DNA from: a virus
Taxonomy: Duplodnaviria; Heunggongvirae; Uroviricota; Caudoviricetes
Strand: one strand, 5' to 3'
Length of the DNA: 22,048 bases
IMG/VR virus record: IMGVR_UViG_3300030444_000103
Span: 1 to 22,048 of that record
The notes beneath the pieces were generated by a model. That model had not been told where the DNA came from. It was given only the letters and a program-made list of their open reading frames with translations, and ran no database searches. The position numbers and the translations under genes are program-made. Each line of letters opens with the position of its first letter. The first letter of the stretch is position 1. Positions 1,782 through 16,449 of this stretch are shown in pieces.

Positions 1782-2286
1782 ACAGGCTCGTGAGGCTCTG
1801 GATGCCTGGATATGTCGACCAGGAATGACACAGGAGCAGGCGACGATATTAATCACTGAAGCATTCTGGGCTTTGAAAGAGCGCCCGAACATCGATGTTC
1901 AGCGTGTCACAGATGAAGGTGGCGCGGTTGATCAGCGAGCGCTTGGTGTTAATCGAGTGAAGATATTCGAACGCTGGAAGGCTATCGACACCAGGGATAA
2001 GCGTGAAAAGTTCACGGCGCTAGTGCCTGCGATTATGGAGGCTATCCGGATTAGTGATTTCAGGTTGTATCGTGAAATTACTGACGGAAAAAGCATCACG
2101 TGCATGATCGCCGGGTTAAACAAAGAATATGGCGATGTGGTGGAGTCCGGACTGCTTTTTGCTGATCCTGCCGTAGTGGATCGTGAAACTGACGAACTTA
2201 TAGAAAAAGCAATTGCTTTCAAGCTTGCGTATCGACAGCAATACCAACAAAAAGCTGGATGGAATTATGAGCCTTCTTTTTGCTGA
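1765..2286 (+). CDS. YdaT-like prophage protein in the cII position
   Basis: 173-aa ORF overlapping the end of the cro-like gene; family assignment is from weak recalled resemblance only. Confidence 0.5.
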   Translation: MKITPEQAREALDAWICRPGMTQEQATILITEAFWALKERPNIDVQRVTDEGGAVDQRALGVNRVKIFERWKAIDTRDKREKFTALVPAIMEAIRISDFRLYREITDGKSITCMIAGLNKEYGDVVESGLLFADPAVVDRETDELIEKAIAFKLAYRQQYQQKAGWNYEPSFC

Positions 2287-3232
2287 ACGCCCACTGGTTA
2301 TAAACACGCAGCTGGCAATGAAAATTGGCTTAAACGAAGCCATTGTTTTGCAACAACTGCACTACTGGTTGAGAGATACCAACTCCGGCATGGAATGTGA
2401 TGGTGTTCGCTGGATTTATAACACAACGGAACAATGGCTGGAACAGTTCCCATTCTGGTCAGAGTCAACGTTAAAGCGCGCGTTTGCAAGTCTGAAAACG
2501 CTGGGGCTTTTGCGTTGTGAAAAGCTCAATAAATCAAAGCGCGATATGACCAATTTCTACATGATCAACTATGGGAGCGAGCTTTTAGATGGTGGCAAAT
2601 TGAGCGAATCCATCGGTTCAAAATGCGCCGCTCCATCAGGTCAAAATGACACGATGGAAGAGGTCAAAATGAAACGCTCCATTGATTCAAAACGACCCAA
2701 TGTCATCGGGTCAAAATGGCCTGATGATCTTACAGAGAATACAACAGAGATTACTACAGAGAATAAAAACACTTTTCGTCCGGAAGCTTCGCAACCGGAC
2801 CCGCAGACGACTGAACAGGATTTTTTAACCCGGAACTCCGACGCGGTTGTGTTTAGTGCGAAAAAACGCCAGTGGGGTAGCAGGGAGGATTTGGCGTGTG
2901 CGCAGTGGATCTGGGGGCGGATCGTGGGTCTCTACGAACAGGCAGCCAGTGATGATGGCGAGATCATGCGACCAAAAGAGCCTAACTGGACTGCCTGGGC
3001 CAATGACGTGCGCACAATGCGGATGCTGGATGGCAGAAGCCACAGACAAATTTGCGAAATGTTTGGTCGGGTTCAGCGAGATCCATTCTGGGTAAAAAAC
3101 ATCATGAGCCCGTCAAAGCTCCGCGAAAAATGGGACGAACTGGTCATCCGCCTGGGACGTTCACCTGTACAGCGTTGTGTTAATCATATTTCTGAACCGG
3201 ATACAGAAATTCCGCCTGGTTTCAGAGGATAA
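2267..3232 (+). CDS. Phage replication initiator (O-like replisome organiser)
   Basis: Track ORF 2213..3232 with likely ATG at 2267 after GGATGG; N-terminus MSLLFAERPLVINTQLAMKIGLNEAIVLQQLHYWL is typical of replisome-organiser N-domains; iteron-like repeats lie inside the gene. Confidence 0.65.
   Translation: MSLLFAERPLVINTQLAMKIGLNEAIVLQQLHYWLRDTNSGMECDGVRWIYNTTEQWLEQFPFWSESTLKRAFASLKTLGLLRCEKLNKSKRDMTNFYMINYGSELLDGGKLSESIGSKCAAPSGQNDTMEEVKMKRSIDSKRPNVIGSKWPDDLTENTTEITTENKNTFRPEASQPDPQTTEQDFLTRNSDAVVFSAKKRQWGSREDLACAQWIWGRIVGLYEQAASDDGEIMRPKEPNWTAWANDVRTMRMLDGRSHRQICEMFGRVQRDPFWVKNIMSPSKLREKWDELVIRLGRSPVQRCVNHISEPDTEIPPGFRG
2610..2720 (+). repeat. Iteron-like direct repeats (putative ori) inside the replication gene
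   Basis: Five copies of CCATCrGkTCAAAATG-like motifs at about 2610, 2633, 2660, 2681 and 2703, spaced about 22-24 bp. Confidence 0.5.
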
Positions 3233-3272
3233 GTGTTGATTTCAGGTCATGAGGTAATTTTAAGGGGGACTT

Positions 3273-3695
3273 GTGGCAAAAGTTTTTACACAAGAAGAGC
3301 GGGAAAAAATTAAATGGCAGGTGGTGGAACTCGTGCGCCAGAGCGGCCGTGAGACGTTACGGCAACTGGAAGCTAAAACAGGTGCGACTAGATATCTGAT
3401 GAGCGTTCTTGCCAGAGAGCTGGTAGCCAGTGGCGATGTATACAACTCCGGCTACGGGTTATTCCCCTCTGAACAGGCGCGTAAGGACTGGCAAAACGCC
3501 CGCAAAAAACTCTCGAGGGCAAAGGTGAAGAAACCTGCTGTGGTTGATCCGGACCTTATCTGGTCATCACCTGACGGAGAAATACGTCGCTACGACAGTC
3601 GCCTAAACATAATCTGTCGCGAGTGCCGGAAGAGCGAAGTTATGCAGCGCATACTGGCTTTCTATCAGGGTAATTTTCAGGACGTGGCGCAGTGA
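3273..3695 (+). CDS. Hypothetical prophage protein (140 aa), GTG start
   Basis: ORF with AAGGGGGA upstream of a GTG start; its stop overlaps the start of the next gene; no family recognised. Confidence 0.5.
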   Translation: MAKVFTQEEREKIKWQVVELVRQSGRETLRQLEAKTGATRYLMSVLARELVASGDVYNSGYGLFPSEQARKDWQNARKKLSRAKVKKPAVVDPDLIWSSPDGEIRRYDSRLNIICRECRKSEVMQRILAFYQGNFQDVAQ

Positions 3696-4137
3696 GTGCA
3701 CCGGCAACCATTCTTGATATGTGCTGTGGCAGCCGCATGTTCTGGTTCGATAAGTCTGACGAACGGGCGATATTTAGCGATATCAGAAAAGAAGGATACA
3801 CATTACGCAATGGGAGACGCTTGATTATCAGCCCTGACATTATCGCAGATTTTCGTGCATTATCATTTGCAGACGCATCTTTTTCGATGGTTGTATTAGA
3901 CCCTCCGCATCTTGAGCGTGTTGGTGATAACGCCTGGATGGGAAAGAAATATGGACGGCTGAATAAAGATGCCTGGCGTGATGATTTGCGACAGAGATTT
4001 AAAGAAGCTTTTCGGGTGTTGAGGCCGCACGGCGTTCTGATTTTTTAATGGAATGAAACGCAAATACCGGTAAGCCAGATTCTGGCACTGACAGATAGAA
4101 AGCCTGTTATCTGTCAACGAACAGGGAAAAAACGATA
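3692..4137 (+). pseudogene. DNA methyltransferase (DPPY/DPPH-motif type), frameshifted at a T6 run
   Basis: 118-aa ORF containing VVLDPPH ends at TAA within TTTTTT (4041-4046); the next frame continues open (WNETQIPVSQILALTDRKPVICQRTGKKR) to about 4137; no SAM-binding motif follows, so the gene is truncated. Confidence 0.5.
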
Positions 4138-4310
4138 AAACCCACTGGATTATTTTTATGAAAGAGGCATCCAGTGAGTAGATTCGTAAGGTTACAGATA
4201 CGTATATCTGAATAATTAAATTCAGTTCTGTAAATAAAACTTAATCCTTAACCGGATGGATTTCTGCACCCTCAGAACATCAGGAGGCCGCCCGAAAGGG
4301 CGGTAGTGAA

Positions 4311-4493
4311 ATGCGAAAGTTCAAAATTATTATTGAAACGGGAATAGCTGGTGGAGATTTTGAGGATGTATTCGAAGTGGACGATGACGCAACACCTGAT
4401 GAAATTCATGACGGAGCATAAGAAATTTTCTTTAACTACTGCAATTACTCATACCACGAAATAAAAGACGATGAGGAAGAACAAAGTGGCTGA
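4311..4493 (+). pseudogene. Short ORF with an in-frame TAA at 4419-4421
   Basis: Hand translation: MRKFKIIIETGIAGGDFEDVFEVDDDATPDEIHDGA, stop, then EIFFNYCNYSYHEIKDDEEEQSG. Confidence 0.3.
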
Positions 4494-4662
4494 TTTTTGT
4501 TCAGCTAAATATAACATCAGTTTTGAAGAGCGGGATGAACTATTAATGGACTATGGTGAGTTACGCGGTGGAAGTGCTGCTGATGTCGAATCCTAGCGTG
4601 ATGACTATGAAGCGGGAAAAACTCCGGTCGAAGCATATTGTGATGAGTGGGGCGATGAATGA
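4471..4662 (+). pseudogene. Short ORF with an in-frame TAG at 4594-4596
   Basis: Hand translation: MRKNKVADFCSAKYNISFEERDELLMDYGELRGGSAADVES, stop, then RDDYEAGKTPVEAYCDEWGDE; its TGA overlaps the next ATG (ATGA). Confidence 0.3.
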
Positions 4663-4946
4663 GCGAGATTAATTATCAGGAAGGGCATGAAACGGCGGGG
4701 CAAGCAAAACCAGTGACATGGCGATATCGCTACGTGAAAAAAGGCGTTACGGACTTTCAGGGGAAGTAGTGGTCTGGTGACTGGAAATATGTACCGAAAA
4801 AAGAGGATTGTAACGACAGGCCGAACTATCAAATTCAGGCCTTATTCACTGCCTCACCAGTCCCGGTTACATCAGAAGAATTGGTTAAAGCTGTGCACTT
4901 TTATGAACAACTAAAACGCGAAAATCCACCAACATCCGGCAACTAG
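4659..4946 (+). pseudogene. Short ORF with an in-frame TAG at 4767-4769
   Basis: Hand translation: MSEINYQEGHETAGQAKPVTWRYRYVKKGVTDFQGK, stop, then a 58-codon open stretch WSGDWKYVPKKEDCNDRPNYQIQALFTASPVPVTSEELVKAVHFYEQLKRENPPTSGN. Confidence 0.3.
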
Positions 4947-5200
4947 ATTAATGGGTTAACTATGTCGGTTAAACGACCAGCCAACTGAAAAAGCGGAAAC
5001 CTGATTACAGGTTGCCAGATAAGGCAATGAGCTACCTGGCGCGGAACGGACTGATAAGTATGGGGAATGTTTTACGATGAACCTTTAGACTAAAGAGTTT
5101 GTAACGCTATGTAAGTGATTTTTTCTGGTTTAGATATTTATATGTCCGGCCAAATTGAGGTGTGTTTAAATGTAATTGCACATTGATTGTAGGAGGAATA

Positions 5201-5380
5201 ATGAAAAACGCATTGCAGTTTTTGTTTGTTGCGTTCTGGTTGTTCGCATCATGTATGCCCATCATCTTCACAGCAAGGTATATGGAAAAAGTTGATGTTT
5301 TGATATTAATATTTGGATATATAAATGCCCTTTTTTTAGGGGTGTTCATGGCGGTCATGTGCATTGAATACTGGCGGTAA
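5201..5380 (+). CDS. Small hydrophobic (two-helix) membrane protein, 59 aa
   Basis: Strong SD AGGAGG 5 nt before ATG 5201 (inside track ORF 5162..5380); MKNALQFLFVAFWLFASCMPIIFTARYMEKVDVLILIFGYINALFLGVFMAVMCIEYWR; sits in an AT-rich island. Confidence 0.45.
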   Translation: MKNALQFLFVAFWLFASCMPIIFTARYMEKVDVLILIFGYINALFLGVFMAVMCIEYWR

Positions 5381-5559
5381 ATACAGCGAATTCCATTGGT
5401 TTAGTTGGATATTTACTGTGCTGGACAAAAACGGTTTGCGGGGAAATCTTAGTTAAGTAGAATGACTGCGGGTGCTTGAGGCTATCTGCCTCGGGCACGA
5501 ACACCAACGGCAGGTAGAGAAAAGCCCCAGTTAACATTACGCGTCCTGCAAGACGCTTA

Positions 5560-5640
5560 ACATTAATCTGAGGCCAATTTCATGCCAGACACATGTAGGT
5601 TAGCCTCTTACGTGCCGAAAGGCAAGGAGAAGCAGGCTAT
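5560..5640 (+). pseudogene. hok/gef-family 5' region remnant, cut at the start codon
   Basis: GCCTCTTACGTGCCGAAAGGCAAGGAGAAGCAGGCTAT matches the recalled hokC-type leader and SD and resembles the intact hokD start at 8941-8958; the coding sequence is absent after the start-codon position. Confidence 0.4.
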
Positions 5641-7127
5641 TGTTAACACCAAGCTGTAATGTCCCCTTTGAACCATTCTAAAATGTCCCCAGACAATTCT
5701 CTGGGGGATTTTTCATGACCAAAGAAACTGTTACGATGAGTCATAAGGAACTCCACCGACTTCAGATTATTCAGGAGTCAATTAATCGACATATTACTCA
5801 GGAACAAGCTGCGGCACGCATTGGCATTTCTATTCGGCAGGTTAAACGTCTGGTGCAACGGTATAGAAATGAAGGGCCTTCTGGTCTGGTTTCCCACCGA
5901 CGTGGAAAGCGTCCTAATAATTCCTTTTCTACTGAATTCAGAGCAACAGTAATTTTACTCCTCAAAGGCCGTTACGCTGATTTTGGACCTACGTTTGCGT
6001 GCGAAAAATTGCGCGAGATACACGGTTTATCTTTATCCGTTGAAACTCTCAGAAAGTGGATGATAGAAGAGGGGGGTATGGCGTGAACGCCGTCGTAAAA
6101 TTGCCCGTATATATCAACGCCGCATGCGACGACCATCTTACGGTGAACTGATCCAGATTGATGGCTCACCTCATGACTGGTTTGAAAATCGAGGCCCCAG
6201 ATGTACACTGATCGTTTTCATTGATGATGCCACCAGTGCGTTGATGGCGTTGCGTTTTGTGCCTGCTGAAACAACCCGGGCTTACATGGAAACCCTCCGG
6301 GGTTACCTTAATGATCATGGCGTACCGCTCGCTCTCTACTCTGATAGACACAGTATATTCAGGGTAAATAACCCAGAGCGGGAAGGTGAGCTGACCCAGT
6401 TCACTCGTGCGATAAAGACACTGGGCATCGAGCCAATCCATGCCAACAGCCCGCAGGCAAAAGGGCGGGTAGAGCGCGCCAATCAGACACTACAGGACAG
6501 GCTGGTCAAAGAAATGCGGCTTCAGAATATCAGTGATATTGAAACAGCAAATGCATGGTTGCCGACCTTTATTGAAGCCTATAACAACCGGTTCGCTACG
6601 TCGCCTCGTACTACTGATAATGCTCATCTTGATGTGCACCATTCTGAAGAGGAACTGGGTTATATCTTCAGCCTACAGGCGAAGCGCGTTCTGTCTAAAA
6701 ATCTCACTTTCCAGTACAAAAGCAGTGCGTTTCAGGTACGCAGTGAGGGCCGGGGATATCGACTTAGGCATTCGGTTGTTACTGTATGCGAGAACTTTGA
6801 CGGTGAAATTAACGTTCTGTATGACGGGAAAGCGCTGGGCTGGGAAAAGTATGTTGATGGCCCGGAGCCTATACCACTGGATGATGAAAAGAGTGTCCAT
6901 GAACGAGTGGATAATGCCCGTATTGATTTACGCTCAAAATACTATGTTAAACCTAAAGCTGACCATCCCTGGCTTACGCGCCGAACGCAAAGTCATCAGC
7001 AAGTTAAGCCCCCGAAGTTACCTAAAAAGAAGCCTGATCCCGATAAAAAAGATTGAAACCAAGATCGATTCGGTTGAGTGCATATCCATTCATAGGGTAG
7101 ATTCTTAAGTCGCGTTTCTGGTGTTCA
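5641..7127 (+). mobile_element. Insertion sequence with a DDE (rve) transposase, IS481/ISNCY-like; boundaries approximate
   Basis: Begins where hok homology ends; candidate imperfect terminal inverted repeats TGTTAACACCA (left) and TGAACACCA (right, reverse complement); no clear target-site duplication. Confidence 0.4.
5715..7056 (+). pseudogene. DDE transposase split into two ORFs by a frameshift in a G6 run (6071-6076)
   Basis: ORF 5715..6086 carries the N-terminal HTH; ORF 6124..7056 carries the integrase core; the alternative frame across the G run reads ...EEGVWRERRRKIARIYQRRMRRPSYGELIQ..., joining them. Confidence 0.7.
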
Positions 7128-7492
7128 TTTTCGGGTGGTTTGTTACTTGTTTTACCGGGGATATGCCAGAAACGCGCTGAGTCAGTCTGGGCGGTGCGCG
7201 TAATGAGGCGTTATGGTAAATAGCCTATGCTAATGTCCGCTAAGAGCAAGAAGCGGAAGTTGGCAGTTTTGTGGACTGTCCCCACAAAAGTGACTACAGA
7301 AATAGTTGCAATTCATAATTGATCATGGGTTGTCAGTTAAACTCGTGGCGATTTAAATAGACTAATTGGGAGTGCGTCCATTACTTATATCTTGTAATGT
7401 TAACTATCAGAAATGATACAAAGATAATATGTCTTTAAAGAAAAGGCTGATGGCGAAAAGTGGCCCGATGAGGGCCACAATACGGCTGTCAC

Positions 7493-7825
7493 TTAGACGT
7501 AAATATCAATGGTGCCAGCGGTATTTGTATCGTCTTTTTTCTCTTCTTTTTTATCAGGCTGAACTGTCGCGTCTTTATTCTTTTTCTCTGCCTGCTGCCT
7601 TAACAACTGCTCCAGTTGAGCCCTGAGGCTTTCAATTTGCTTCTGTACCAATGCAGCCATTTCTTTTTTCTGCTGTGTCGTCATCCCCTCTTCCGATGAG
7701 ATTTTCCCAAGCTTTTCAGTCAGCACCTGAATTTGTCTTGTGATTTTGGCTATTTCTGATGTTCCTTCCGGGGCGGAGTTGTTTGAAATAACGGTTGAGG
7801 TATTTCCCTGAATTGTGACAGACAT
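7493..7825 (-). CDS. flxA: FlxA-like protein (110 aa)
   Basis: 110-aa coiled-coil-like ORF matching the recalled size and context of Qin flxA; preceded by a sigma-28 promoter match. Confidence 0.65.
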   Translation of the reverse strand: MSVTIQGNTSTVISNNSAPEGTSEIAKITRQIQVLTEKLGKISSEEGMTTQQKKEMAALVQKQIESLRAQLEQLLRQQAEKKNKDATVQPDKKEEKKDDTNTAGTIDIYV

Positions 7826-7848
7826 AGATTTCTCCTTTTAAAAAAGCA

Positions 7849-7875
7849 CTATCGGCATGCACAAAAAAATCTTTA
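7849..7875 (-). promoter_or_regulatory. Sigma-28 (FliA) promoter for flxA
   Basis: Minus strand reads TAAAGATT-N11-GCCGATAG against consensus TAAAGTTT-N11-GCCGATAA, about 25 nt upstream of the start codon. Confidence 0.6.
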
Positions 7876-8320
7876 ATCGTATTTCTTGTGTCATTAATTG
7901 TTTGATGTTCAGATTGTTTTCCTCGCGGGCTGGCGCGCCTCAGAAAGTAAAGCTTGTTGACAGGGGTAAACGTTCGGCAATAATTTTCTGCCGCATGCGG
8001 GTGTTGCATAAAACGTGCTACGTTCCTTTATCGACAGGTCAGGTCACCGCTCACCCGCCGACGAGAAAGCAACACTGACATGCTAAAGCAAAAAATAGAT
8101 GAATAAGTTGAGTTGTGCATATGTAGCCTGACCGTCACAAAGTATATGGTGTCTGTACCAGTAAGATGATGGCCGGACTCTTTAAAAACGAGCTGACCTG
8201 CACAATACAGGATGGACTTAGCAATGGCTGCTCCTGGCACAAAGCGGACAGTGATCACCGTTCTTACGACTACTTTCTGACTTCCTTCGTGACTTGCCCT
8301 AAGCATGTTGTAGTGCGATA

Positions 8321-8346
8321 CTTGTAATGACATTTGTAATTACAAG
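8321..8346 (+). promoter_or_regulatory. relBE operator-like palindrome (relO)
   Basis: CTTGTAATGACATTTGTAATTACAAG just upstream of relB; matches the known pattern of TTGTAAT/ATTACAA repeats. Confidence 0.5.
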
Positions 8347-8357
8347 AGGTGTAAGAC

Positions 8358-8597
8358 ATGGGTAGCATTAACCTGCGTATTGACGATGAACTTAAAGCGC
8401 GTTCTTACGCCGCGCTTGAAAAAATGGGTGTAACTCCTTCTGAAGCGCTTCGTCTCATGCTCGAGTATATCGCTGACAATGAACGCTTGCCGTTCAAACA
8501 GACACTCCTGAGTGATGAAGATGCTGAACTTGTGGAGATAGTGAAAGAACGGCTTCGTAATCCTAAGCCAGTACGTGTGACGCTGGATGAACTCTGA
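8358..8597 (+). CDS. relB: RelB antitoxin
   Basis: 79 aa, MGSINLRIDDELKARSYAALEKMGVTPSEALRLMLEYIADNERLPF...; stop overlaps the relE ATG (TGATG). Confidence 0.85.
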   Translation: MGSINLRIDDELKARSYAALEKMGVTPSEALRLMLEYIADNERLPFKQTLLSDEDAELVEIVKERLRNPKPVRVTLDEL

Positions 8598-8884
8598 TGG
8601 CGTATTTTCTGGATTTTGACGAGCGGGCACTAAAGGAATGGCGAAAGCTGGGCTCGACGGTACGTGAACAGTTGAAAAAGAAGCTGGTTGAAGTACTTGA
8701 GTCACCCCGGATTGAAGCAAACAAGCTCCGTGGTATGCCTGATTGTTACAAGATTAAGCTCCGGTCTTCAGGCTATCGCCTTGTATACCAGGTTATAGAC
8801 GAGAAAGTTGTCGTTTTCGTGATTTCTGTTGGGAAAAGAGAACGCTCGGAAGTATATAGCGAGGCGGTCAAACGCATTCTCTGA
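8597..8884 (+). CDS. relE: RelE mRNA-interferase toxin
   Basis: 95 aa, MAYFLDFDERALKEWRKLGSTVREQLKKKLVEVLESPRIEANKLRGMPDCYKIKLRSSGYRLVYQVIDEKVVVFVISVGKRERSEVY... Confidence 0.85.
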   Translation: MAYFLDFDERALKEWRKLGSTVREQLKKKLVEVLESPRIEANKLRGMPDCYKIKLRSSGYRLVYQVIDEKVVVFVISVGKRERSEVYSEAVKRIL

Positions 8885-8955
8885 ACCAAAGCATGACATC
8901 TCTGTTTCGCACCGAAGGTGACACTTCTGCTTTGCGTTGACAGGAGAAGCAGGCT

Positions 8956-9111
8956 ATGAAGCAGCAAAAGGCGATGTTAATCGCCCTGATCGTCATCTGT
9001 TTAACCGTCATAGTGACGGCACTGGTAACGAGGAAAGACCTCTGCGAGGTACGAATCCGAACCGGCCAGACGGAGGTCGCTGTCTTCACAGCTTACGAAC
9101 CTGAGGAGTAA
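8956..9111 (+). CDS. hokD: HokD (RelF) type I toxin, 51 aa
   Basis: Hand translation: MKQQKAMLIALIVICLTVIVTALVTRKDLCEVRIRTGQTEVAVFTAYEPEE; below the ORF-track cutoff. Confidence 0.85.
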   Translation: MKQQKAMLIALIVICLTVIVTALVTRKDLCEVRIRTGQTEVAVFTAYEPEE

Positions 9112-9178
9112 GAGACCCGGCGGGGGAGAAATCCCTCGCCACCTCTGATGTGGCAGGCATCCTCAACGCACCCGCACT

Positions 9179-9207
9179 TAACCCGCTTCGGCGGGTTTTT
9201 GTTTTTA
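9179..9207 (+). terminator. Rho-independent terminator after hokD
   Basis: ACCCGCTTCGGCGGGT hairpin followed by a T-run. Confidence 0.6.
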
Positions 9208-9327
9208 TTTTCAACGCGTTTGAAGTTCTGGACGGTGCCGGAATAGAATCAAAAATACTTAAGTAGCGCGCAGGGATAAGAGGGATGGTCCCTTAAAGGG
9301 GAGAGCTAATTATCCGGAAGGATTCTG

Positions 9328-9579
9328 ATGATGAACATCGAAGAACTGCGTAAAATTTTTTGTGAAGATGGCCTCTATGCTGTGTGCGTTGAAAATGGAA
9401 ATCTTGTTAGTCATTACCGCATTATGTGTTTGCGAAAGAATGGGGCTGCGTTAATTAATTTTGTGGATGCTCGGGTCACGGACGGATTTATCTTGCGCGA
9501 AGGTGAGTTTGTCACTTCATTACAGGCATTGAAAGAGATCGGAATAAAAGCTGGCTTTTCTGCTTTTTCAGGAGAATAA
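9328..9579 (+). CDS. Rem-like small prophage protein (83 aa)
   Basis: ORF with GGAAGGA SD; size and position after hokD match Qin rem; the rem sequence itself is not recalled. Confidence 0.5.
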   Translation: MMNIEELRKIFCEDGLYAVCVENGNLVSHYRIMCLRKNGAALINFVDARVTDGFILREGEFVTSLQALKEIGIKAGFSAFSGE

Positions 9580-9645
9580 ACTCATCTACAATCTTGCGCG
9601 GGGCTGAACTCCCGCTGAGTAACACCGTGCCACCGGAGAAAACCG

Positions 9646-9924
9646 ATGGCACGCAACGCAAAATATTACAATTCTGATAATTCGCCCGTTCTTGCCTGCA
9701 CGCACGGGCGGTATTCTCACGCATTCAAGTCTGAATGGTTCCAGCACCCTCCATGCACTGCAGAACAGGCCGAATGGCTGATTCATTCTTACCGCAGGCG
9801 CGGGTTCGAGGTTAAGAAAGCTCTCAGTCTCGACTATCGGCACTGGATAATCTCTGTCAGGCTGCCTTATTCCGAACGCCCACCACGTGCGTCCCGCACT
9901 TTCCAGCAACGGATCTGGAGGTAA
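9646..9924 (+). CDS. Hypothetical protein (92 aa), translationally coupled to the next gene
   Basis: GGAGAAAACCG before the ATG; TAA at 9922-9924 is followed 1 nt later by the GTG start of the downstream gene. Confidence 0.4.
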   Translation: MARNAKYYNSDNSPVLACTHGRYSHAFKSEWFQHPPCTAEQAEWLIHSYRRRGFEVKKALSLDYRHWIISVRLPYSERPPRASRTFQQRIWR

Positions 9925-9925
9925 C

Positions 9926-10975
9926 GTGCGGGTATTACTTAGACCTGTTCTGGTGCCTGAGCTTGGGCTGGTGGTCCTTAAGCCGGGCCGTGAATCCATA
10001 CAGATATTTCATAATCCTCGAGTGCTGGTGGAACCGGAACCAAAAAGCATGCGTAATCTGCCATCCGGAGTCGTTCCTGCCGTTCGCCAGCCGCTGGCGG
10101 AAGACAAAACATTGCTGCCGTTTTTTAGTAACGAACGGGTGATTCGTGCTGCTGGCGGCGTTGGCGCATTGTCCGACTGGCTATTACGTCATGTTACATC
10201 CTGCCAGTGGCCTAATGGCGATTACCATCACACTGAAACAGTCATTCACCGTTATGGTACCGGCGCAATGGTGTTGTGCTGGCACTGCGACAACCAACTG
10301 CGTGACCAGACATCGGAATCACTGGAGCTGCTTGCTCAACAAAATCTGACAGCATGGGTGATTGACGTCATCCGTCACGCAATAAGCGGTACGCAGGAGC
10401 GGGAATTATCTTTGGCTGAATTATCCTGGTGGGCGGTCTGCAATCAGGTGGTGGATGCACTACCTGAGGCTGTATCGCGTCGTTCGCTGGGATTACCAGC
10501 GGAAAAAATCTGCTCGGTGTACCGCGAAAGCGACATCGTACCGGGAGAGCAGACCGCCACCAGCATATTGAAACAACGCACAAAAAATCTTGCACCGTTG
10601 CCTTACGCCCACCAGCAACAAAAATCACCACAGGAAAAGACGGTGGTAAGCATCACCGTTGATCCAGAGTCTCCGGAATCTTTCATGAAGCTGCCTAAAC
10701 GTCGCCGCTGGGTTAAGGAGAAATACACACGTTGGGTTAAGACACAGCCGTGTGCTTGCTGCGGTATGCCAGCCGACGATCCGCATCATCTGATTGGTCA
10801 CGGGCAGGGCGGAATGGGAACAAAAGCACATGATCTCTTTGTGTTGCCTTTGTGCAGAAAGCATCACAACGAGCTGCATACGGATACAGTGGCATTTGAA
10901 GATAAGTATGGCTCCCAACTGGAGCTGATATTTCGTTTTATCGATCGCGCGCTGGCAATTGGCGTACTGGCGTAA
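9926..10975 (+). CDS. YdfU-like DUF968 protein with a C-terminal Cys/His (HNH-like) motif, 349 aa
   Basis: Track ORF 9887..10975; GTG at 9926 after GGAGGT; C-terminus ...QPCACCGMPADDPHHLIGHGQGGMGTKAHDLFVLPLCRKHHNELH... Confidence 0.6.
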   Translation: MRVLLRPVLVPELGLVVLKPGRESIQIFHNPRVLVEPEPKSMRNLPSGVVPAVRQPLAEDKTLLPFFSNERVIRAAGGVGALSDWLLRHVTSCQWPNGDYHHTETVIHRYGTGAMVLCWHCDNQLRDQTSESLELLAQQNLTAWVIDVIRHAISGTQERELSLAELSWWAVCNQVVDALPEAVSRRSLGLPAEKICSVYRESDIVPGEQTATSILKQRTKNLAPLPYAHQQQKSPQEKTVVSITVDPESPESFMKLPKRRRWVKEKYTRWVKTQPCACCGMPADDPHHLIGHGQGGMGTKAHDLFVLPLCRKHHNELHTDTVAFEDKYGSQLELIFRFIDRALAIGVLA

Positions 10976-10988
10976 GTGGAGAACGAGC

Positions 10989-11741
10989 ATGAACCTTGAA
11001 GCCTTACCAAAATATTACTCCCCAAAATCTCCAAAATTGAGCGATGACGCTCCAGCGACAGGCACCGGTTGTTTAACAATTACGGATGTAATGGCAGCGC
11101 AGGGGATGGTGCAGTCGAAAGCACCACTTGGGTTGGCCTTATTTCTGGCAAAAGTTGGTGTTCAGGACCCTCAGTTTGCGATTGAAGGCCTGCTAAATTA
11201 CGCGATGGCACTGGATAACCCGACATTGAACAAATTGAGTGAAGAAATCCGGTTACAGATTATTCCTTACCTCGTGAGTTTTGCCTTTGCTGATTACTCC
11301 AGGTCTGCGGCAAGTAAGGCTCGCTGTGAGCATTGTTCAGGTACGGGATTTTATAATGTATTGCGCGAAGTGGTGAAACACTACAGACGCGGGGAATCTG
11401 TAATCAAGGAAGAATGGGTGAAGGAACTATGTCAGCATTGCCATGGTAAGGGCGAAGCCAGCACAGCGTGCAGAGGGTGTAAGGGTAAAGGGATTGTTCT
11501 GGATGAAAAAAGAACCCGGTTTCATGGCGTACCGGTATATAAGATTTGTGGGCGTTGTAATGGAAACCGGTTTAGTCGTTTACCGACCACGCTGGCACGA
11601 CGTCATGTCCAGAAGCTGGTACCAGACCTGACCGATTATCAGTGGTATAAGGGGTATGCGGACGTCATTGGTAAACTGGTAACAAAGTGCTGGCAGGAAG
11701 AAGCATACGCGGAAGCGCAATTGAGGAAGGTGACGAGATAA
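10989..11741 (+). CDS. Late-gene antiterminator Q (phage 82 / QuuQ-like), 250 aa
   Basis: Track ORF 10959..11741 with ATG 10989 after GGAG; several CxxC pairs; size and sequence match the recalled Qin QuuQ. Confidence 0.8.
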   Translation: MNLEALPKYYSPKSPKLSDDAPATGTGCLTITDVMAAQGMVQSKAPLGLALFLAKVGVQDPQFAIEGLLNYAMALDNPTLNKLSEEIRLQIIPYLVSFAFADYSRSAASKARCEHCSGTGFYNVLREVVKHYRRGESVIKEEWVKELCQHCHGKGEASTACRGCKGKGIVLDEKRTRFHGVPVYKICGRCNGNRFSRLPTTLARRHVQKLVPDLTDYQWYKGYADVIGKLVTKCWQEEAYAEAQLRKVTR

Positions 11742-11772
11742 ATGATTTTTGCTGAAGATGGCGACATGATGT

Positions 11773-11801
11773 TTGCATTTTTCAAAAAATATGGATAAAA
11801 T
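11773..11801 (+). promoter_or_regulatory. pR'-like late promoter
   Basis: TTGCAT-N17-TAAAAT immediately downstream of Q. Confidence 0.55.
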
Positions 11802-11846
11802 TTTTTCAACGATGGGCTTTGTATACCCGACGTTAAGAAAAAGTAG

Positions 11847-11872
11847 AAAACCCGCTGATGAGCGGGTTTTGT
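11847..11872 (+). terminator. tR'-like intrinsic terminator
   Basis: AAAACCCGCT-GATG-AGCGGGTTTT hairpin about 45 nt downstream of the promoter -10. Confidence 0.6.
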
Positions 11873-12162
11873 GCTTTAAATGGGGCAATGGTAATGTTGA
11901 ATCTCATCCCGGGACTCATGTCTGTTAACTTATTATTTAGCTGGTGACTTGGTTATTTGCCTGATGTTTAAAATGTTTTCTTCCAGTACAATGTCCCTAA
12001 ACACAATGAGTCTGCTTATTATATTATTAGCAGAGCTATTACGGCCAAAGTACAGCATAAGCTTTTAAAGCCAATCAACCAGTCATCAAGACAGACGGGG
12101 TTATTCATAAAAACTCTCCATGTGTGATCCGATGGGGCCTGAAATTAAAGCTTTAATATAGC

Positions 12163-12375
12163 TCATGAAAGGTAAACATTGGCAGCTGAAGGGCCACGCA
12201 GACCATTTATCCGGCAAAATTCCACGCGTAATCCGGTGGTAATTTCTTCTGCATCGCGGAGATTGAGCGCTGAGACATGAAGCTGGACATCGATACGACC
12301 ATCGGATGGGGTGATAAGACCCTTGCCGCTTTTGCCGTCAAAGGTTTTGACAATTCCTGTCATTTTACGGGACAA
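12163..12375 (-). CDS. cspF: Cold-shock-domain protein, CspF/CspH-like
   Basis: 70 aa, [26 protein letters not shown]...[16 protein letters not shown]. Confidence 0.8.
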
Positions 12376-12675
12376 AAAAATTCCTTAATACTGATAACTT
12401 GGCGCACTATACACACGTTCCTGAAGAAAGCTATAGTTTTTTGATGGGGTTGAAGATGGCTGGATGTCTAAAATAAACATTGCTTCATATGTTCAACTAT
12501 GCGTTAATGATTGCGTCGGTTTGAAGAACAGACGATATACGAAGTAGTTTACTAAAGCAGTTCTCATTTCAGGTGTTATTCACTTATTCCTTCTTTGAGT
12601 CTCTCCAATTAAGTACGAAGTCGTTTCTGTTATGCAAACCATTTATGCCGAAAGGCTCAAGTTAAGGAATGTAGA

Positions 12676-12891
12676 ATGTCAAATAAAATGACTGGTTTAG
12701 TAAAATGGTTTAACGCTGATAAAGGTTTCGGCTTTATTTCTCCTGTTGATGGTAGTAAAGATGTGTTTGTGCATTTTTCTGCGATTCAGAATGATAATTA
12801 TCGAACCTTATTTGAAGGTCAAAAGGTTACCTTCTCTATAGAGAGTGGTGCTAAAGGTCCTGCAGCAGCAAATGTCATCATTACTGATTAA
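12676..12891 (+). CDS. cspB: Cold-shock protein, CspB-like
   Basis: 71 aa, [38 protein letters not shown]...; divergent from the cspF-like gene. Confidence 0.85.
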
Positions 12892-13173
12892 AATTCATCG
12901 CTCGTCTGTATACGATAACGAAGAAGGCTGATGCCTGAGTAGAGATACGGACAGAGTAGTGAATATTGGATCTCTTTAATAAAAAGTAAGGAGGTCCAAT
13001 ACATGAAACAATGGCTAGCATATTTGGCAAAATCTTAATCAGGAAAAGTATGCTAACCATTGTGGTGAAGTGCAGGTTTGCTGCATGAATAGTTTTACAG
13101 CAGAAGCTAACTGCTGGCATGGCAAAACAAAGTGCGTAAGTGGATGACTCCCACAAAAAGCACCACAATCTCA

Positions 13174-13197
13174 AACCCGCTCAGGCGGGTTTTTTAT
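13174..13197 (+). terminator. Intrinsic terminator
   Basis: AACCCGCTCAGGCGGGTT hairpin followed by TTTTTT. Confidence 0.55.
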
Positions 13198-13254
13198 TAT
13201 CTGCTTTAAATATATTATTAAAATATAAAAAATACTTGTTACTAATAAAATCAA

Positions 13255-13425
13255 TCAGGCTACAGCTTTAAGATTTGTCTGGAATACTTTGTTGCAATGA
13301 GGGCAGATCAAAAGGGCACCTTTTTGTACTCTTGAAAAACTGTGTTCTGACTCTTGGGTGCAGTTTGGGCAGGAACATTTAACGAGATAATTACGGCGTG
13401 ATTTTGAGTTTTTACGTTCTGACAT
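13255..13425 (-). CDS. Small zinc-ribbon protein (56 aa)
   Basis: Internal ATG of track ORF 13255..13476 with AGGAAA SD; MSERKNSKSRRNYLVKCSCPNCTQ...ICPHCNKVF carries paired Cys motifs. Confidence 0.4.
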   Translation of the reverse strand: MSERKNSKSRRNYLVKCSCPNCTQESEHSFSRVQKGALLICPHCNKVFQTNLKAVA

Positions 13426-13644
13426 AGGCTTTTCCTGTATAAATGGCCGTATACAGTACACTAAATATGAAAACATTTCTCGTATTATTATTTTATATAT
13501 GACTTTCTTTCAAAATAATTACCCACATTTTTAATGTGTATGTTTTTTTAGCGCCGTTGAGAACAACGTGTGCTGTCAAAACTACCCCGTAGACTCCGAT
13601 CTTTTCAAACATATTGCACCATCCGTGTACATCGGGGTGAGGAT

Positions 13645-13860
13645 ATGAAATCAATGGATAAGTTAACAACAGGTGTTGCCTATGGCACATCGGCGGGTAA
13701 TGCTGGTTTCTGGGCATTGCAGTTACTCGATAAAGTAACTCCGTCACAGTGGGCTGCAATCGGTGTGCTGGGTAGCCTGGTTTTTGGCCTGCTGACGTAT
13801 CTGACAAATCTTTATTTCAAGATTAAAGAAGACAGGCGTAAGGCTGCGAGAGGAGAGTAA
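13645..13860 (+). CDS. Pinholin (phage 21 S-like), 71 aa, dual-start motif
   Basis: [71 protein letters not shown] after GGGGTGAGG; close to recalled S21. Confidence 0.8.
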
Positions 13861-13864
13861 TCCA

Positions 13865-14172
13865 ATGACTCAAGACTATGAACTGGTTGTGAAAGGAGTC
13901 CGTAATTTTGAGAATAAAGTTACGGTAACTGTAGCCTTACAGGACAAAGAACGCTTTGACGGTGAAATTTTTGACCTGGATGTCGCCATGGACCGTGTTG
14001 AAGGAGCTGCGCTGGAGTTTTATGAGGCAGCAGCCAGAAGGAGCGTCCGGCAAGTCTTCCTGGAAGTAGCAGAAAAATTGTCAGAAAAAGTTGAGTCTTA
14101 TCTGCAGCATCAGTACTCCTTTAAGATTGAAAATCCTGCCAATAAGCACGAGCGTCCTCATCATAAATATAT

Positions 14173-14176
<4 letters not shown>
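13865..14176 (+). CDS. YdfR-like hypothetical protein (103 aa) between holin and endolysin
   Basis: 103-aa ORF; its stop overlaps the endolysin ATG (ATGA); same size and position as ydfR in Qin. Confidence 0.55.
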
Positions 14177-15200
<1,024 letters not shown>

Positions 15201-15563
15201 GGTAATATTAAATCGGAACATTTACATCGCGGAATGTAAAATTTAAATAAAAAGGACTCTTCCATGAGCCAAAATTCCTGAAATCTTAAGGGTAAGATAA
15301 AAGGTCTTAATCAGAATGACACGTTATTATTAATAAATAAAGCTATTCTTTCATTGCTGTGTTTTTCTTTACAAAAGTAATCCTTGCTATGGGTGGTTAA
15401 TCATGCGTTAATGGTGTTCTGGTTTGTTACAAATTTATCTGAAGCAGTCATTGTTATAATTTTATTATTTGTACCTCTTGAGATTTCCTTGTTGGTTTTT
15501 CTCTCTGATATTTTTTTTCGGACCATTCTGCCCAAGGGCTAATTTCTTCAAAAGGTAATAATT

Positions 15564-15776
15564 ATGTCTAACAAAATGACTGGTTTAGTGAAATGGTTTA
15601 ACCCTGAAAAAGGTTTTGGTTTCATCACGCCGAAAGATGGCAGCAAAGATGTGTTTGTCCATTTCTCAGCAATTCAGAGCAACGATTTCAAAACATTAAC
15701 TGAGAATCAGGAAGTTGAATTTGGTATTGAGAACGGACCTAAAGGTCCTGCCGCTGTTCATGTAGTGGCGCTTTGA
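15564..15776 (+). CDS. cspI: Cold-shock protein, CspI-like
   Basis: 70 aa, [45 protein letters not shown]...; long AT-rich 5' leader. Confidence 0.8.
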
Positions 15777-15981
15777 GGTAGACAATATTACAAACCATAT
15801 TCACTTTAGATGCCCGTGTTGTCATGGTTCCCAGTATAGAACATCATCTTTTGATGTTTCTGACATGAATCCTTTCGGGGCAAAATGTATCTTTTGTAAA
15901 TCAATGATGATTACATTTGATAATATTTCACAATACTTAAATGCCAGCCGTCTGTCGTTGGATTTAAAAAAGTGAAAATGA

Positions 15982-16003
15982 AGGCTCCTTCGGGAGCTTT
16001 TTT
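15982..16003 (+). terminator. Intrinsic terminator
   Basis: AGGCTCC-TTCG-GGAGCTT hairpin followed by TTTTTT. Confidence 0.5.
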
Positions 16004-16047
16004 GCTTGGTATCTATTCGATGGATACTCACATACTACGGTAACATC

Positions 16048-16278: not shown

Positions 16279-16449
16279 TTTGATGCTATTGTATTGATAA
16301 TTCAGGAAAATTTTCTTTGTCTGTTTGTGTAAAATTTAGACTATCGTATGTTGATTATTGCGATGTTTCATCTTATCTTTTACACGTTTGCACCATATAA
16401 TCGACTTACTGTGTAACTGGAAAGTCATAACAGACTAAAAGAGGAAATG

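What the first reader, a model, noticed from the sequence alone, without database searches (positions are those of the whole stretch)
8321..9207. Adjacent type II (relBE) and type I (hokD) toxin systems
relB, relE and hokD are intact, with a relO-like operator and a terminator; a second hok-type locus at 5.6 kb is inactivated. These are known systems, but their integrity in a decaying prophage suggests ongoing selection.
Basis: partly seen in the sequence, partly recalled or inferred. Interest (0 to 1): 0.35.

Follow-up and report, generated by a model that had tools for sequence, protein, structure and literature searches.

The report
Transposon-borne relBE splitting a hok locus
The relB, relE and hokD genes are intact and identical to E. 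coli K-12, but they are not two neighbouring toxin systems: relBE is the right arm of a 3.3-kb transposon that landed on the ribosome-binding site of one hok/sok locus, cutting hokD off from its own control region, which is the "second hok locus" at 5.6 kb.

Summary
The gene calls are correct. relB (8358-8597), relE (8597-8884), hokD (8956-9111), the relO operator (8321-8346) and the terminator (9180-9205) are intact and 100% identical to K-12.

The interpretation needs revising. The "inactivated second hok locus" (5470-5641) is the 5' half of the same hokD locus: promoter, leader, mok start and the Sok region. Joining 5420-5640 to 8958-9215 gives a contiguous hokD locus that exists at 99.4% identity in other E. 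coli.

The 3301 bp in between (5641-8941) is a transposon flanked by a 16-bp target duplication (AGGAGAAGCAGGCTAT). It has an ISEsa1-type (IS1202-family) transposase on the left, frameshifted here. The middle is cargo (flxA). relBE reads outward across the right end.

Elements with the same two arms, 3.3 to 12.8 kb long, sit at the same position in about a dozen different hok loci. Six sequence-distinct flanking duplications were found, and empty sites were recovered for two of them. So relB-relE-hok is a repeated product of targeted transposition.

hokD here is an orphan toxin ORF, most likely transcribed from the relBE promoter and out of Sok's reach. Copies are nearly identical across genera, so intactness may reflect youth rather than selection.

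I found no description of this element or its hok targeting, but key sources were unavailable.

The parts
5470..5641 (+). 5' half of the hokD locus. This is the hok mRNA leader from +1 to the former hok start codon, which now reads ATT. It holds the tac element (5470-5481), a mok-type SD (GAGG, 5570-5573) and a mok-type ATG (5582). A putative hok promoter -10 (TAGAAT, 5458-5463) lies just upstream.
   Evidence: Rfam RF01794 matches at 99.8 bits over model positions 1-157. The stretch is contiguous with hokD in E. coli CP53 and many other genomes. tac pairs with fbi in the rejoined RNA. The promoter and mok assignments come from reading the sequence and from position, so they are inferred.
5520..5625 (-). 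Inferred orphan Sok antisense gene: RNA at about 5590 to 5520, -10 TAACCT (5597-5602) and -35 TTGCCT (5620-5625).
   Evidence: Assigned by positional equivalence to Sok of plasmid R1, which I recalled from memory, and by reading. The consensus promoter scan did not list it. It is inferred, not tested.
5613..5624 (.). Conserved hok-leader hairpin TGCC-GAAA-GGCA. This is the proposed anchor for target recognition, and it overlaps the inferred Sok -35.
   Evidence: 16 of 20 distinct left flanks carry (T/C)GCC-N4-GGCA, with the element end 16-17 nt to its 3' side. This holds even where the duplicated sequence differs (L020, L024).
5625..5640 (.). Left copy of the 16-bp target-site duplication AGGAGAAGCAGGCTAT.
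   Evidence: (family D17).
5641..8941 (+). A 3301-bp ISEsa1-type (IS1202-family) transposon. It has a left arm, cargo and a relBE right arm.
   Evidence: It is absent from the empty site in CP53. It is 99.88% identical to a copy in a Salmonella IncI plasmid that has a different duplication.
5641..5707 (+). Left terminal inverted repeat (TGTTAACACCAAGCTGTAATGTCCCC) with a second AATGTCCCC sub-repeat 24 nt further in. A terminator-like hairpin at 5686-5707 sits just before the transposase gene.
   Evidence: family D12; 20 of 27 identity to the reverse complement of the right end.
5715..7056 (+). Transposase gene with HTH and rve/DDE domains. It is broken by a +1 G in a G-run at 6066-6071. The annotated 'ydfW' (6907-7056) is its C-terminal tail.
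   Evidence: The intact 446-aa version is in L004, and the single-base difference is shown.
7251..8229 (.). Variable cargo segment. Here it holds flxA (7493-7825, minus strand) and most of the doubtful ORF 'ydfV' (8028-8333, minus strand).
   Evidence: The arm boundaries come from comparing elements with different cargo. FlxA has a Pfam match and ydfV has none.
8230..8941 (+). Conserved 712-bp right arm. It holds the relBE promoter region, relO, relB, relE and a 57-bp right end.
   Evidence: Element positions 2590-3301 are retained at 93-99% identity in elements with other cargo. The arm is present in 784 of 72,556 plasmids.
8294..8346 (+). relBE promoter (-35 TTGCCC at 8294-8299, -10 GATACT at 8317-8322) and the relO operator (8321-8346).
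   Evidence: The inverted repeats and the unique operator match are. The sequence is identical to K-12. The role of relO is described in PMC3507626. The hexamer positions are my own reading.
8358..8597 (+). relB antitoxin gene (79 aa).
8597..8884 (+). relE toxin gene (95 aa). Its start codon overlaps the relB stop codon by one base.
8885..8941 (+). Right end of the transposon, with a terminal inverted repeat ending ...GGTGACACTTCTGCTTTGCGTTGAC. No terminator lies between relE and hokD.
   Evidence: The same end is followed by different duplications. The terminator scan is.
8942..8957 (.). Right copy of the target-site duplication. It supplies the hokD Shine-Dalgarno sequence (AGGAG) and the first two bases (AT) of its ATG.
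8956..9111 (+). hokD ORF (51 aa, Hok/Gef family).
9112..9205 (+). hok mRNA 3' UTR. It holds the fbi element (9161-9173), which is complementary to tac at 5470-5481, and the terminator hairpin (9180-9197) with its T-run.

Best explanation
SHOWN
- Window 8321-9207 is the junction between two things. One is the right arm of an ISEsa1-type (IS1202-family) transposon that carries relBE. The other is the 3' half of the prophage's single hokD locus.
- The transposon (5641-8941) inserted about 16 nt downstream of a conserved hairpin in the hok leader. It duplicated 16 bp that hold the hok Shine-Dalgarno sequence and the first two bases of the start codon.
- The left product keeps the leader matched by the Rfam hok-leader/sok model, ending at a destroyed start codon (ATT).
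- The right product puts an intact hokD ORF, with its ribosome-binding site restored by the duplication, 71 nt after relE with no terminator between them.
- The same insertion geometry recurs in many different hok loci.

KNOWN FOR THE IDENTICAL K-12 SEQUENCE
- RelB2E complexes bind relO and repress the promoter by conditional cooperativity.
- relB, relE and hokD (formerly relF) are co-transcribed.

INFERRED
- The left product also keeps the hok promoter, the mok start and a Sok gene with its promoter. These are assigned by position only.
- hokD is no longer subject to fold-back inhibition (tac/fbi), mok coupling or Sok. Its level follows relBE autoregulation.
- The transposase reads the hairpin-plus-AGGAG region of the hok leader. 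That steers the element to plasmids and prophages and replaces their RNA-controlled addiction module with its own protein-controlled one.
- The copy in this window can no longer move on its own, because its transposase is frameshifted.
For: Split locus and empty sites
- Joining 5420-5640 to 8958-9215 matches one contiguous annotated hokD locus at 99.4% identity. The exact joints and the 16-bp overlap are seen in CP53.
- The first 12 nt of the leader pair with 9161-9173 in the rejoined RNA. This is the tac/fbi fold-back typical of hok mRNAs (PMC9841398).
- A second empty site exists. Removing the element and one duplicate from the IncI plasmid copy gives a 100% match over 420 nt to ColIb-P9-type plasmids.

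Transposon features
- The transposase has HTH and rve domains and is annotated as ISEsa1 family.
- The ends are 20 of 27 identical as inverted repeats, with sub-repeats at equal spacing.
- Six sequence-distinct duplications flank elements that share these two arms:
  - 3301 bp here, AGGAGAAGCAGGCTAT
  - 3300 bp in a Salmonella IncI plasmid, ATGGAGGGGCTATGAT
  - 6092 bp, AGGAGAAGAAGGCCAT
  - 4486 bp, 14 nt
  - 7693 bp, 17 nt
  - 12,842 bp with ncr and chr cargo, AGGAGAAGTCAGCTAT
  The 4599-bp elements carry the same or a 17-nt version of the third sequence.

Targeting
- 11 of 15 left ends in species-representative genomes abut a hok leader in the same orientation, and one more in the inverse orientation.
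- The Rfam hok-leader model ends exactly at the element in six loci.
- At least 10 different intact Hok proteins follow the right end.

hokD and its neighbours
- No leader or sok match, and no terminator, lies between relE and hokD.
- Co-transcription of relB, relE and relF in K-12 is reported in PMC5120126, citing Gotfredsen and Gerdes 1998.
- K-12 lacks window 2044-6872 and has no hok-leader match in this region.
Against: - ISfinder lists ISEsa1 as a 1609-bp IS with 15/22 inverted repeats and no detectable duplication (PMC10132070). I could not inspect that entry, so a separately mobile 1.6-kb form cannot be excluded.
- Three of 15 species-representative copies have flanks unrelated to hok.
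- The exact element ends are ambiguous by one base. With TGT...ACA ends the duplication would be 15 bp.
- No experiment here shows transposition, read-through transcription in this strain, or HokD translation.
- Predicted accessibility of the hokD ribosome-binding site is similar in the fused and native RNAs, which is uninformative.
- The Sok promoter and hok promoter assignments rest on position only.
Confidence: 0.85

Rival explanations
1. Two independent, complete toxin-antitoxin systems (relBE of type II, hokD of type I) happen to be neighbours. A separate second hok locus at 5.6 kb has decayed, and selection keeps the first two intact.
For: All three ORFs are intact. A hok-type leader with a destroyed start codon lies at 5470-5641. 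The surrounding prophage holds several pseudogenes.
Against: - hokD has no leader, mok or sok of its own.
- The two hok pieces join into one known locus with no overlap beyond the 16-bp duplication.
- The 5' end of one piece pairs with the 3' end of the other.
- Near-identity of copies across genera means intactness needs no selection.
Confidence: 0.03
2. The 3.3-kb segment arrived by illegitimate or microhomology-mediated recombination from a plasmid, not by transposition. The 16-bp repeat would then be a recombination scar.
For: Earlier work described relBE as integrated into hokD from plasmids without naming a vehicle (PMC6379469, citing Ramisetty and Santhosh 2016). The window's transposase is frameshifted.
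Against: - Six sequence-distinct flanking repeats of 14-17 bp sit at the same two element ends, in different hok loci and in elements of different size.
- The ends are inverted repeats next to a DDE transposase.
- Precise empty sites exist for two targets.
- The IS1202 family includes members with 16-17-bp duplications.
Confidence: 0.04
3. The autonomous unit is a 1.6-kb ISEsa1. The relBE arm would be neighbouring DNA with a surrogate right end that the transposase sometimes uses, as in ISEcp1-type mobilisation. relBE would then be captured cargo, not a built-in arm.
For: ISfinder defines ISEsa1 as 1609 bp. That matches the roughly 1607-1610-bp conserved left arm. The right inverted repeat is imperfect (20 of 27).
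Against: - No 1.6-kb copy with a flanking duplication was seen among the loci examined, and the cited paper also found none.
- The boundary between left arm and cargo is staggered (element positions 1607, 1611, 1621-1632), so it is not a defined end.
- Every complete element ends at the same relBE-proximal end.
- That end has the same two sub-repeats at the same spacing as the left end.
- Plasmids with the left arm at 90% identity or more (752) and plasmids with the right arm (784) are similar in number.
Confidence: 0.1

Closest known systems
relBEF (relB-relE-hokD) operon of the E. coli K-12 Qin prophage
   Same: Window 6872-17569 is 99.85% identical to K-12, and 8200-9300 is 100% identical. 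The genes, the relO operator and the terminator are the same. The RelBE biochemistry known for K-12 applies directly.
   Different: K-12 has lost window 2044-6872, that is the hok leader and sok region, the transposon's left end and most of the transposase. This strain keeps both halves and both transposon ends, so the origin of the operon can be read from it.
hok/sok (parB) of plasmid R1 and the hok mRNA family
   Same: The rejoined locus has the family's layout: a leader matched by Rfam RF01794, a mok-type start, 5'-3' tac/fbi pairing, a Hok ORF and a 3' terminator (PMC9841398).
   Different: Here the locus is cut at the hok ribosome-binding site. hokD sits on a different transcript from its leader and the Sok target. 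In the rejoined locus the mok-type ATG is in frame with hokD, which is my own reading of the sequence.
IS1202 family of insertion sequences, including the ISAjo2 group that targets dif/pdif sites and members with 16-17-bp duplications
   Same: It has a large HTH plus DDE transposase annotated as ISEsa1 family and a TGT start at the left end. It has a sub-terminal repeat of the inner part of the inverted repeat, a 14-17-bp duplication, and orientation-specific insertion at a fixed distance from a short conserved site (PMC10132070).
   Different: The target is the hok leader hairpin and ribosome-binding site, not a Xer site. The unit that moves carries relBE as a fixed right arm plus variable cargo of 1 to 10.5 kb. 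The database entry gives 1609 bp and no duplication.
IS-disrupted hok loci of K-12 (hokA, hokC and hokE with IS150 or IS186 nearby; Pedersen and Gerdes 1999, recalled from memory because the paper is not in the held library)
   Same: Chromosomal hok loci inactivated by mobile elements inserted close to the hok reading frame but not inside it.
   Different: Here the element is site-specific for hok loci. It leaves the toxin ORF with a working ribosome-binding site and supplies a new upstream promoter and a second toxin-antitoxin pair.
Tn7 (TnsB-type transposase, insertion at a fixed distance from a recognised site)
   Same: IS1202-family transposases are modelled on TnsB, with TGT/ACA ends. Insertion occurs at a set distance from a recognised sequence, in one orientation.
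   Different: No TnsC, TnsD or TnsE-like genes are present in the element. How the target is selected is unknown.

Membership tests
RelBE type II toxin-antitoxin system (E. coli K-12 type) | RelB antitoxin of the RHH type and RelE toxin of the RelE/ParE fold, encoded as antitoxin then toxin with overlapping stop and start codons | tested here: met
   Pfam RelB at 1e-32 and ParE_toxin at 2e-13. Both match the full length of the 4FXE chains. The relB stop and relE start share base 8597.
RelBE type II toxin-antitoxin system (E. coli K-12 type) | relO operator overlapping the promoter, for autoregulation | tested here: met
   TTGTAATGACATTTGTAATTACAA lies at 8322-8345, is unique in the window with 0 expected by chance, and forms inverted repeats. 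It is identical to K-12.
RelBE type II toxin-antitoxin system (E. coli K-12 type) | RelE toxicity neutralised by RelB, and Lon-dependent activation | not testable with these tools
   Taken from the literature for the identical proteins (PMC3507626).
[quoted passage not shown] | Hok/Gef-family toxin ORF | tested here: met
   Pfam HOK_GEF at 1.2e-23. The protein is identical to annotated HokD.
[quoted passage not shown] | Leader (tac, ucb, mok start, Sok target) contiguous with and upstream of hok on the same mRNA | tested here: not met
   No RF01794 match in 8200-9400 even at E<=10. The 71 nt upstream of hokD are the transposon end plus the duplication. The leader lies at 5470-5641.
[quoted passage not shown] | A cis-encoded Sok antisense RNA overlapping the toxin mRNA | tested here: not met
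   Nothing is detected opposite the relE-hokD transcript. The inferred Sok gene lies at about 5520-5625, opposite the orphan leader.
[quoted passage not shown] | 5' tac to 3' fbi fold-back pairing within one mRNA | tested here: not met
   fbi (9161-9173) is present, but its partner (5470-5481) is 3.7 kb away on another transcription unit. The two pair over 12 bp only in the rejoined RNA. The ancestral, rejoined locus does meet this feature and the two above.
IS1202-family transposable element (ISEsa1 type) | Large transposase with N-terminal HTH domains and a DDE (rve) core | tested here: met
   HTH_28, HTH_29, HTH_32 and rve_3 match the intact 446-aa protein. The window copy is split by a +1 frameshift. 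PGAP names it ISEsa1 family.
IS1202-family transposable element (ISEsa1 type) | Imperfect terminal inverted repeats with TGT/ACA ends and an inner repeated binding site | tested here: met
   Identity is 20 of 27, anchored at the ends. The local alignment score is 13, against a background of 6.8 +/- 1.6. Sub-repeats lie 24 nt apart at both ends. The right-end ACA depends on assigning one ambiguous A to the element.
IS1202-family transposable element (ISEsa1 type) | Target-site duplication flanking the element, with precise empty sites | tested here: met
   Duplications of 14-17 bp, six distinct in sequence. Empty sites are shown.
IS1202-family transposable element (ISEsa1 type) | Agreement with the database definition of ISEsa1 (1609 bp, no cargo) | tested here: not met
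   The unit bounded by duplications is 3.3-12.8 kb and always ends beyond relBE. No 1.6-kb unit with a duplication was seen. The ISfinder entry is known only through PMC10132070.
IS1202-family transposable element (ISEsa1 type) | Demonstrated transposition | not testable with these tools
   Inferred from independent insertions only.

The most novel reading that the evidence does not exclude
ISEsa1-type elements are transposons that seek hok loci and have relBE as a built-in arm reading outward. Each insertion disarms a resident hok/sok module and rewires its toxin gene into a relB-relE-hok operon. In that operon Hok would be made when RelB is degraded, so the product is a working two-toxin addiction or defence cassette, not a dead hok gene. 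The K-12 relBEF operon would be the eroded footprint of one such event. The structural half of this reading is very likely, at about 0.85. The probability given here is for the functional half, that Hok is expressed and useful under relBE control, together with this being undescribed.
Probability: 0.3. Interest if true: 0.75.

Novelty: new variant of a known kind. Interest (0 to 1): 0.6.

Why it matters
relBE of E. coli K-12 is a reference type II toxin-antitoxin system, and hokD (relF) was the first chromosomal relative of Hok to be found. Their odd three-gene operon has been treated as a K-12 peculiarity.

This window keeps the parts K-12 has lost. It shows that the operon is the product of a transposon that repeatedly inserts at the ribosome-binding site of hok loci on plasmids and prophages in many enterobacterial genera.

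If this holds up, it would do four things:
1. Add a new target specificity, a type I toxin leader, to the IS1202 family, whose known specific targets are Xer sites.
2. Explain why no target duplication was found for ISEsa1, because the listed right end would be wrong.
3. Give an example of a toxin-antitoxin pair built into a transposon arm. The arm reads out across the element end and most likely carries transcription into the target gene. The element can also carry metal-resistance cargo.
4. Warn that deletions or phenotypes assigned to relBE or hokD in K-12 concern one transcription unit of mobile origin.

For the finding as originally written, the systems themselves are already known.

Tried and rejected
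- Sok or hok-leader search upstream of hokD. An Rfam scan of 8200-9400 at E<=10 returned only weak matches driven by the terminator (isrK and others), which I rejected. The consensus promoter scan found nothing on the minus strand there.
- Direct homology between the 5.6-kb element and the hokD upstream region. Only the 16-bp repeat aligns. This ruled out two paralogous loci.
- A right inverted repeat near window 7250-7260, where a 1.6-kb IS would end. Local alignment to the left end is no better than background (scores 5-8). The boundary is staggered between elements.
- RNA folding to ask whether the hokD ribosome-binding site is more exposed in the fused transcript. Mean unpaired probability was 0.37 against 0.34, which is uninformative.
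- A substitution-pattern test for selection on relBE. I abandoned it because RelE is identical in 56 of 63 copies readable at the expected offset, and RelB in 50 of 63, so there is too little divergence.
- Looking for the reference ISEsa1 on Cronobacter plasmid pESA2. It is not there.
- Literature. Ramisetty and Santhosh 2016, Pedersen and Gerdes 1999 and Fozo 2008 are not held. One paper search was wasted on a bad term. No held paper links ISEsa1, relBE and hok targeting.
- The sequence TGTATGGGTCC... next to some right ends looked like a possible non-Hok toxin. It is the end of another IS, with a DDE transposase on the opposite strand.
Full report
**1. What is at the coordinates**

The window is a Qin-type lambdoid prophage of E. 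coli. It is 100% identical over 2000-9300 to strain NCTC11129. Over 6872-17569 it is 99.85% identical to K-12 MG1655.

Within 8321-9207 the three ORFs are intact:
- relB, 8358-8597, 79 aa, Pfam RelB 1e-32
- relE, 8597-8884, 95 aa, ParE_toxin 2e-13
- hokD, 8956-9111, 51 aa, HOK_GEF 1e-23

Window 8200-9300 is 100% identical to K-12, where these genes are annotated. RelB and RelE match the crystallised E. coli proteins over their full length. The relO operator TTGTAATGACATTTGTAATTACAA lies at 8322-8345 and is unique in the window, with 0 expected by chance. A terminator hairpin with a T-run follows hokD at 9180-9197. So the descriptive part of the finding is correct, and re-translation shows no frameshift or nonsense change.

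**2. hokD has no control region of its own**

The full-window Rfam scan found the hok-leader/sok model (RF01794) once, at 5470-5641, not near hokD. A permissive scan of 8200-9400 found no trace of it. The 71 nt between relE and hokD hold no terminator and no minus-strand promoter.

At 5470-5641 the model aligns end to end. Its last three positions, the hok AUG, read AUU and are followed by unrelated sequence. The only similarity between this element and the hokD upstream region is a perfect 16-mer, AGGAGAAGCAGGCTAT, at 5625-5640 and 8942-8957.

**3. One locus, split**

I joined 5420-5640 to 8958-9215 and searched complete E. coli genomes. The composite matches a single contiguous annotated hokD locus at 99.4% identity over all 479 nt in many strains, at the Qin position.

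In strain CP53 the joints are exact. CP53 locus positions 5575-6220 equal window 4994-5640, and positions 6205-6593 equal window 8942-9330. The two matches overlap by the 16-mer. So window 5641-8941 (3301 bp) is an insertion with a 16-bp target-site duplication.

The rejoined RNA folds with its first 12 nt (5470-5481) paired to 9161-9173. This is the tac/fbi fold-back that defines hok mRNAs (PMC9841398).

K-12 has a deletion of window 2044-6872 and has no hok-leader match. That is why this structure cannot be seen in the reference strain.

**4. The insertion is a transposon with relBE as its right arm**

The insert has these parts:
- It begins TGTTAACACCAAGCTGTAATGTCCCC, with a second AATGTCCCC 24 nt further in.
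- It encodes an ISEsa1-family (IS1202-family) transposase with HTH and rve domains. In this window the gene carries a +1 G in a G-run at 6066-6071. A plasmid copy encodes an intact 446-aa protein. The annotated "ydfW" is the tail of this ORF.
- Next comes flxA, then the doubtful ORF ydfV.
- A 712-bp block (8230-8941) follows, with the relBE promoter, relO, relB, relE and 57 bp ending ...GGTGACACTTCTGCTTTGCGTTGAC. The reverse complement of that end is 20 of 27 identical to the left end and has two sub-repeats at the same spacing.

The decisive evidence is recurrence of the same element with different duplications:

| Source | Element length | Duplication |
|---|---|---|
| This window | 3301 bp | AGGAGAAGCAGGCTAT |
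| Salmonella IncI plasmid (99.88% identical element, different hok locus) | 3300 bp | ATGGAGGGGCTATGAT |
| L008, L018 | 6092 bp | AGGAGAAGAAGGCCAT |
| L009 | 4486 bp | 14 nt |
| L070, L086 | 4599 bp | same sequence as the 6092-bp elements, or a 17-nt version of it |
| L024 | 7693 bp | 17 nt |
| Phytobacter IncF plasmid, with nickel (ncr) and chromate (chr) resistance genes | 12,842 bp | AGGAGAAGTCAGCTAT |

For the IncI copy, removing the element and one duplicate restores a sequence found at 100% identity over 420 nt in ColIb-P9-type plasmids. All these elements share the roughly 1.6-kb transposase arm and the relBE arm. Only the middle cargo differs.

**5. Target specificity**

- A scan of one genome per species for the left end gave 15 copies with a readable flank. 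Eleven abut a hok leader in the same orientation, one abuts a hok start in the inverse orientation, and three have unrelated flanks.
- The Rfam hok-leader model ends exactly at the element in six further loci.
- A metagenome scan for the right end showed it followed by at least 10 different intact Hok proteins: hokD-type, R1-type, MKMPNQP-type and the IncI type.
- Across 20 distinct left flanks, 16 carry the hairpin (T/C)GCC-N4-GGCA, with the element 16-17 nt to its 3' side.
- That spacing holds where the start codon is closer to the hairpin (L020). It also holds where another IS already occupied the site (L024). This suggests the hairpin region, not the duplicated bases, is what the transposase recognises. 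This last step is inference.

**6. How the region most likely works**

Shown: the right arm carries the relBE promoter and reads outward across the transposon end. The duplication restores the hok Shine-Dalgarno sequence and ATG 71 nt after relE.

Known for the identical K-12 sequence: relB, relE and hokD are co-transcribed (PMC5120126, citing Gotfredsen and Gerdes 1998). RelB2E complexes repress through relO by conditional cooperativity. Loss of RelB through Lon frees RelE to cleave mRNA on the ribosome (PMC3507626).

Inferred:
- The hokD message lacks tac, mok and the Sok target, so none of the hok-family controls can act on it.
- Its transcription follows relBE autoregulation.
- Whether HokD is translated from this message is unknown. 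The folding comparison was uninformative.
- On the left side, the hok promoter, leader and inferred Sok gene remain as an orphan pair. A terminator-like hairpin at 5686-5707 sits in front of the transposase gene.

**7. Selection**

The element differs from the plasmid copy by about 0.12%. RelE is identical in 56, and RelB in 50, of 63 copies readable at the expected offset, from many genera and metagenomes. The right arm is at 99% identity or more in 653 plasmids.

At this divergence, less than one substitution is expected in the 684 coding bases. Intact ORFs therefore do not show selection in this prophage. Losses do occur elsewhere: a nonsense codon in relE in a Kluyvera copy, and deletions running into hokD in two metagenome contigs.

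Prevalence in complete E. coli genomes:
- relBE-hokD in 1162 of 5426 genomes
- the left junction in 686
- the long form seen in this window in 399

**8. Comparison with what is known**

The genes and their biochemistry are already known. That relBE integrated into hokD from plasmids has been stated before (PMC6379469, citing Ramisetty and Santhosh 2016). From memory, Pedersen and Gerdes 1999 attributed hokD inactivation in K-12 to a major rearrangement.

I did not find any description of the vehicle, its duplication or its preference for hok leaders. The IS1202-family survey lists ISEsa1 as 1609 bp with no detectable duplication (PMC10132070). That length equals the conserved left arm, which suggests the listed right end is not the true one. 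A recent Hok survey notes IS elements near hok loci but not this element.

Caveats: the key older papers and ISfinder could not be read, so priority is uncertain. No experiment supports mobility or expression.

**9. Verdict**

- As filed, the finding concerns known systems.
- As resolved, it is a split hok/sok locus carrying a relBE-armed, hok-targeting IS1202-family transposon, which is a new variant of a known kind.
- Confidence in the structural account is about 0.85.
- Confidence in the functional rewiring is about 0.3.

Noticed in passing
window 6907-7056 (ydfW) and 8028-8333 (ydfV): 'ydfW' is only the C-terminal tail of the transposase ORF 6124-7056. 'ydfV' straddles the boundary at 8230 between variable cargo and the conserved relBE arm, and has no Pfam match. 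Both are probably annotation artefacts that K-12 has passed on.
   Followed up: partly
window 5582-5640 joined to 8958 onward: In the rejoined hokD locus the mok-type ATG (5582) is in frame with the hokD ATG, 57 nt upstream. This gives a 70-codon ORF. As I recall it, mok of plasmid R1 is out of frame with hok. This probably explains the '70-codon ancestral hokD' mentioned in PMC6379469.
   Followed up: partly
window 5686-5707: A terminator-like hairpin with a T-run lies inside the transposon's left end, 8 nt before the transposase ATG. It could shield the transposase gene from the hok promoter outside the element.
   Followed up: no
L022, L024, L027, L030, L057, L067, L082, L083, L087, L093 (right flank of the relBE arm): In about a dozen metagenome contigs the hok ribosome-binding site is already occupied by another IS that starts TGTATGGGTCCACC... 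and has a DDE transposase on the opposite strand. The relBE element sits inside its first bases. The hok start region may be a hotspot for more than one element.
   Followed up: partly
L095 (plasmid NZ_AP018757), L008, L070, L009: The cargo between the two arms varies. It is ncrABCY plus chrBA (nickel and chromate resistance) in L095. It is a CDF cation-efflux protein plus cytochrome b561 in L008 and L070, with an IS110-family transposase as well in L008. It is a LysR regulator with YdcZ-type exporters in L009. The boundary between left arm and cargo is staggered (element positions 1607, 1611, 1621-1632), so how cargo is exchanged is unclear.
   Followed up: partly
L009 (Kluyvera); L056 and L058: The Kluyvera copy has a nonsense codon in relE. 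Two metagenome contigs have a deletion running from the transposon's right end into hokD at about codon 29. The module does decay in some lineages.
   Followed up: no
L006, L012, L021: Three of 15 species-representative ISEsa1-type left ends lie in flanks unrelated to hok. One is next to an isrO match. These could reflect relaxed targeting or later rearrangement.
   Followed up: no
window 12515-12907, 15418-15803 and 19770-19844: Two cspA-type thermoregulator leaders were found at positions that correspond to the cspB and cspI genes of K-12 Qin. A tRNA-Arg(CCT) gene on the minus strand lies in the part of the window (beyond 17569) that is not shared with K-12.
   Followed up: no
window 2044-6872 compared with K-12: K-12 has a 4.8-kb deletion relative to this strain, between ydfX and ydfW. 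It removes prophage genes that PGAP annotates as YdaT-family toxin, DUF977 and a methyltransferase pseudogene. It also removes the hok leader and most of the transposase.
   Followed up: partly
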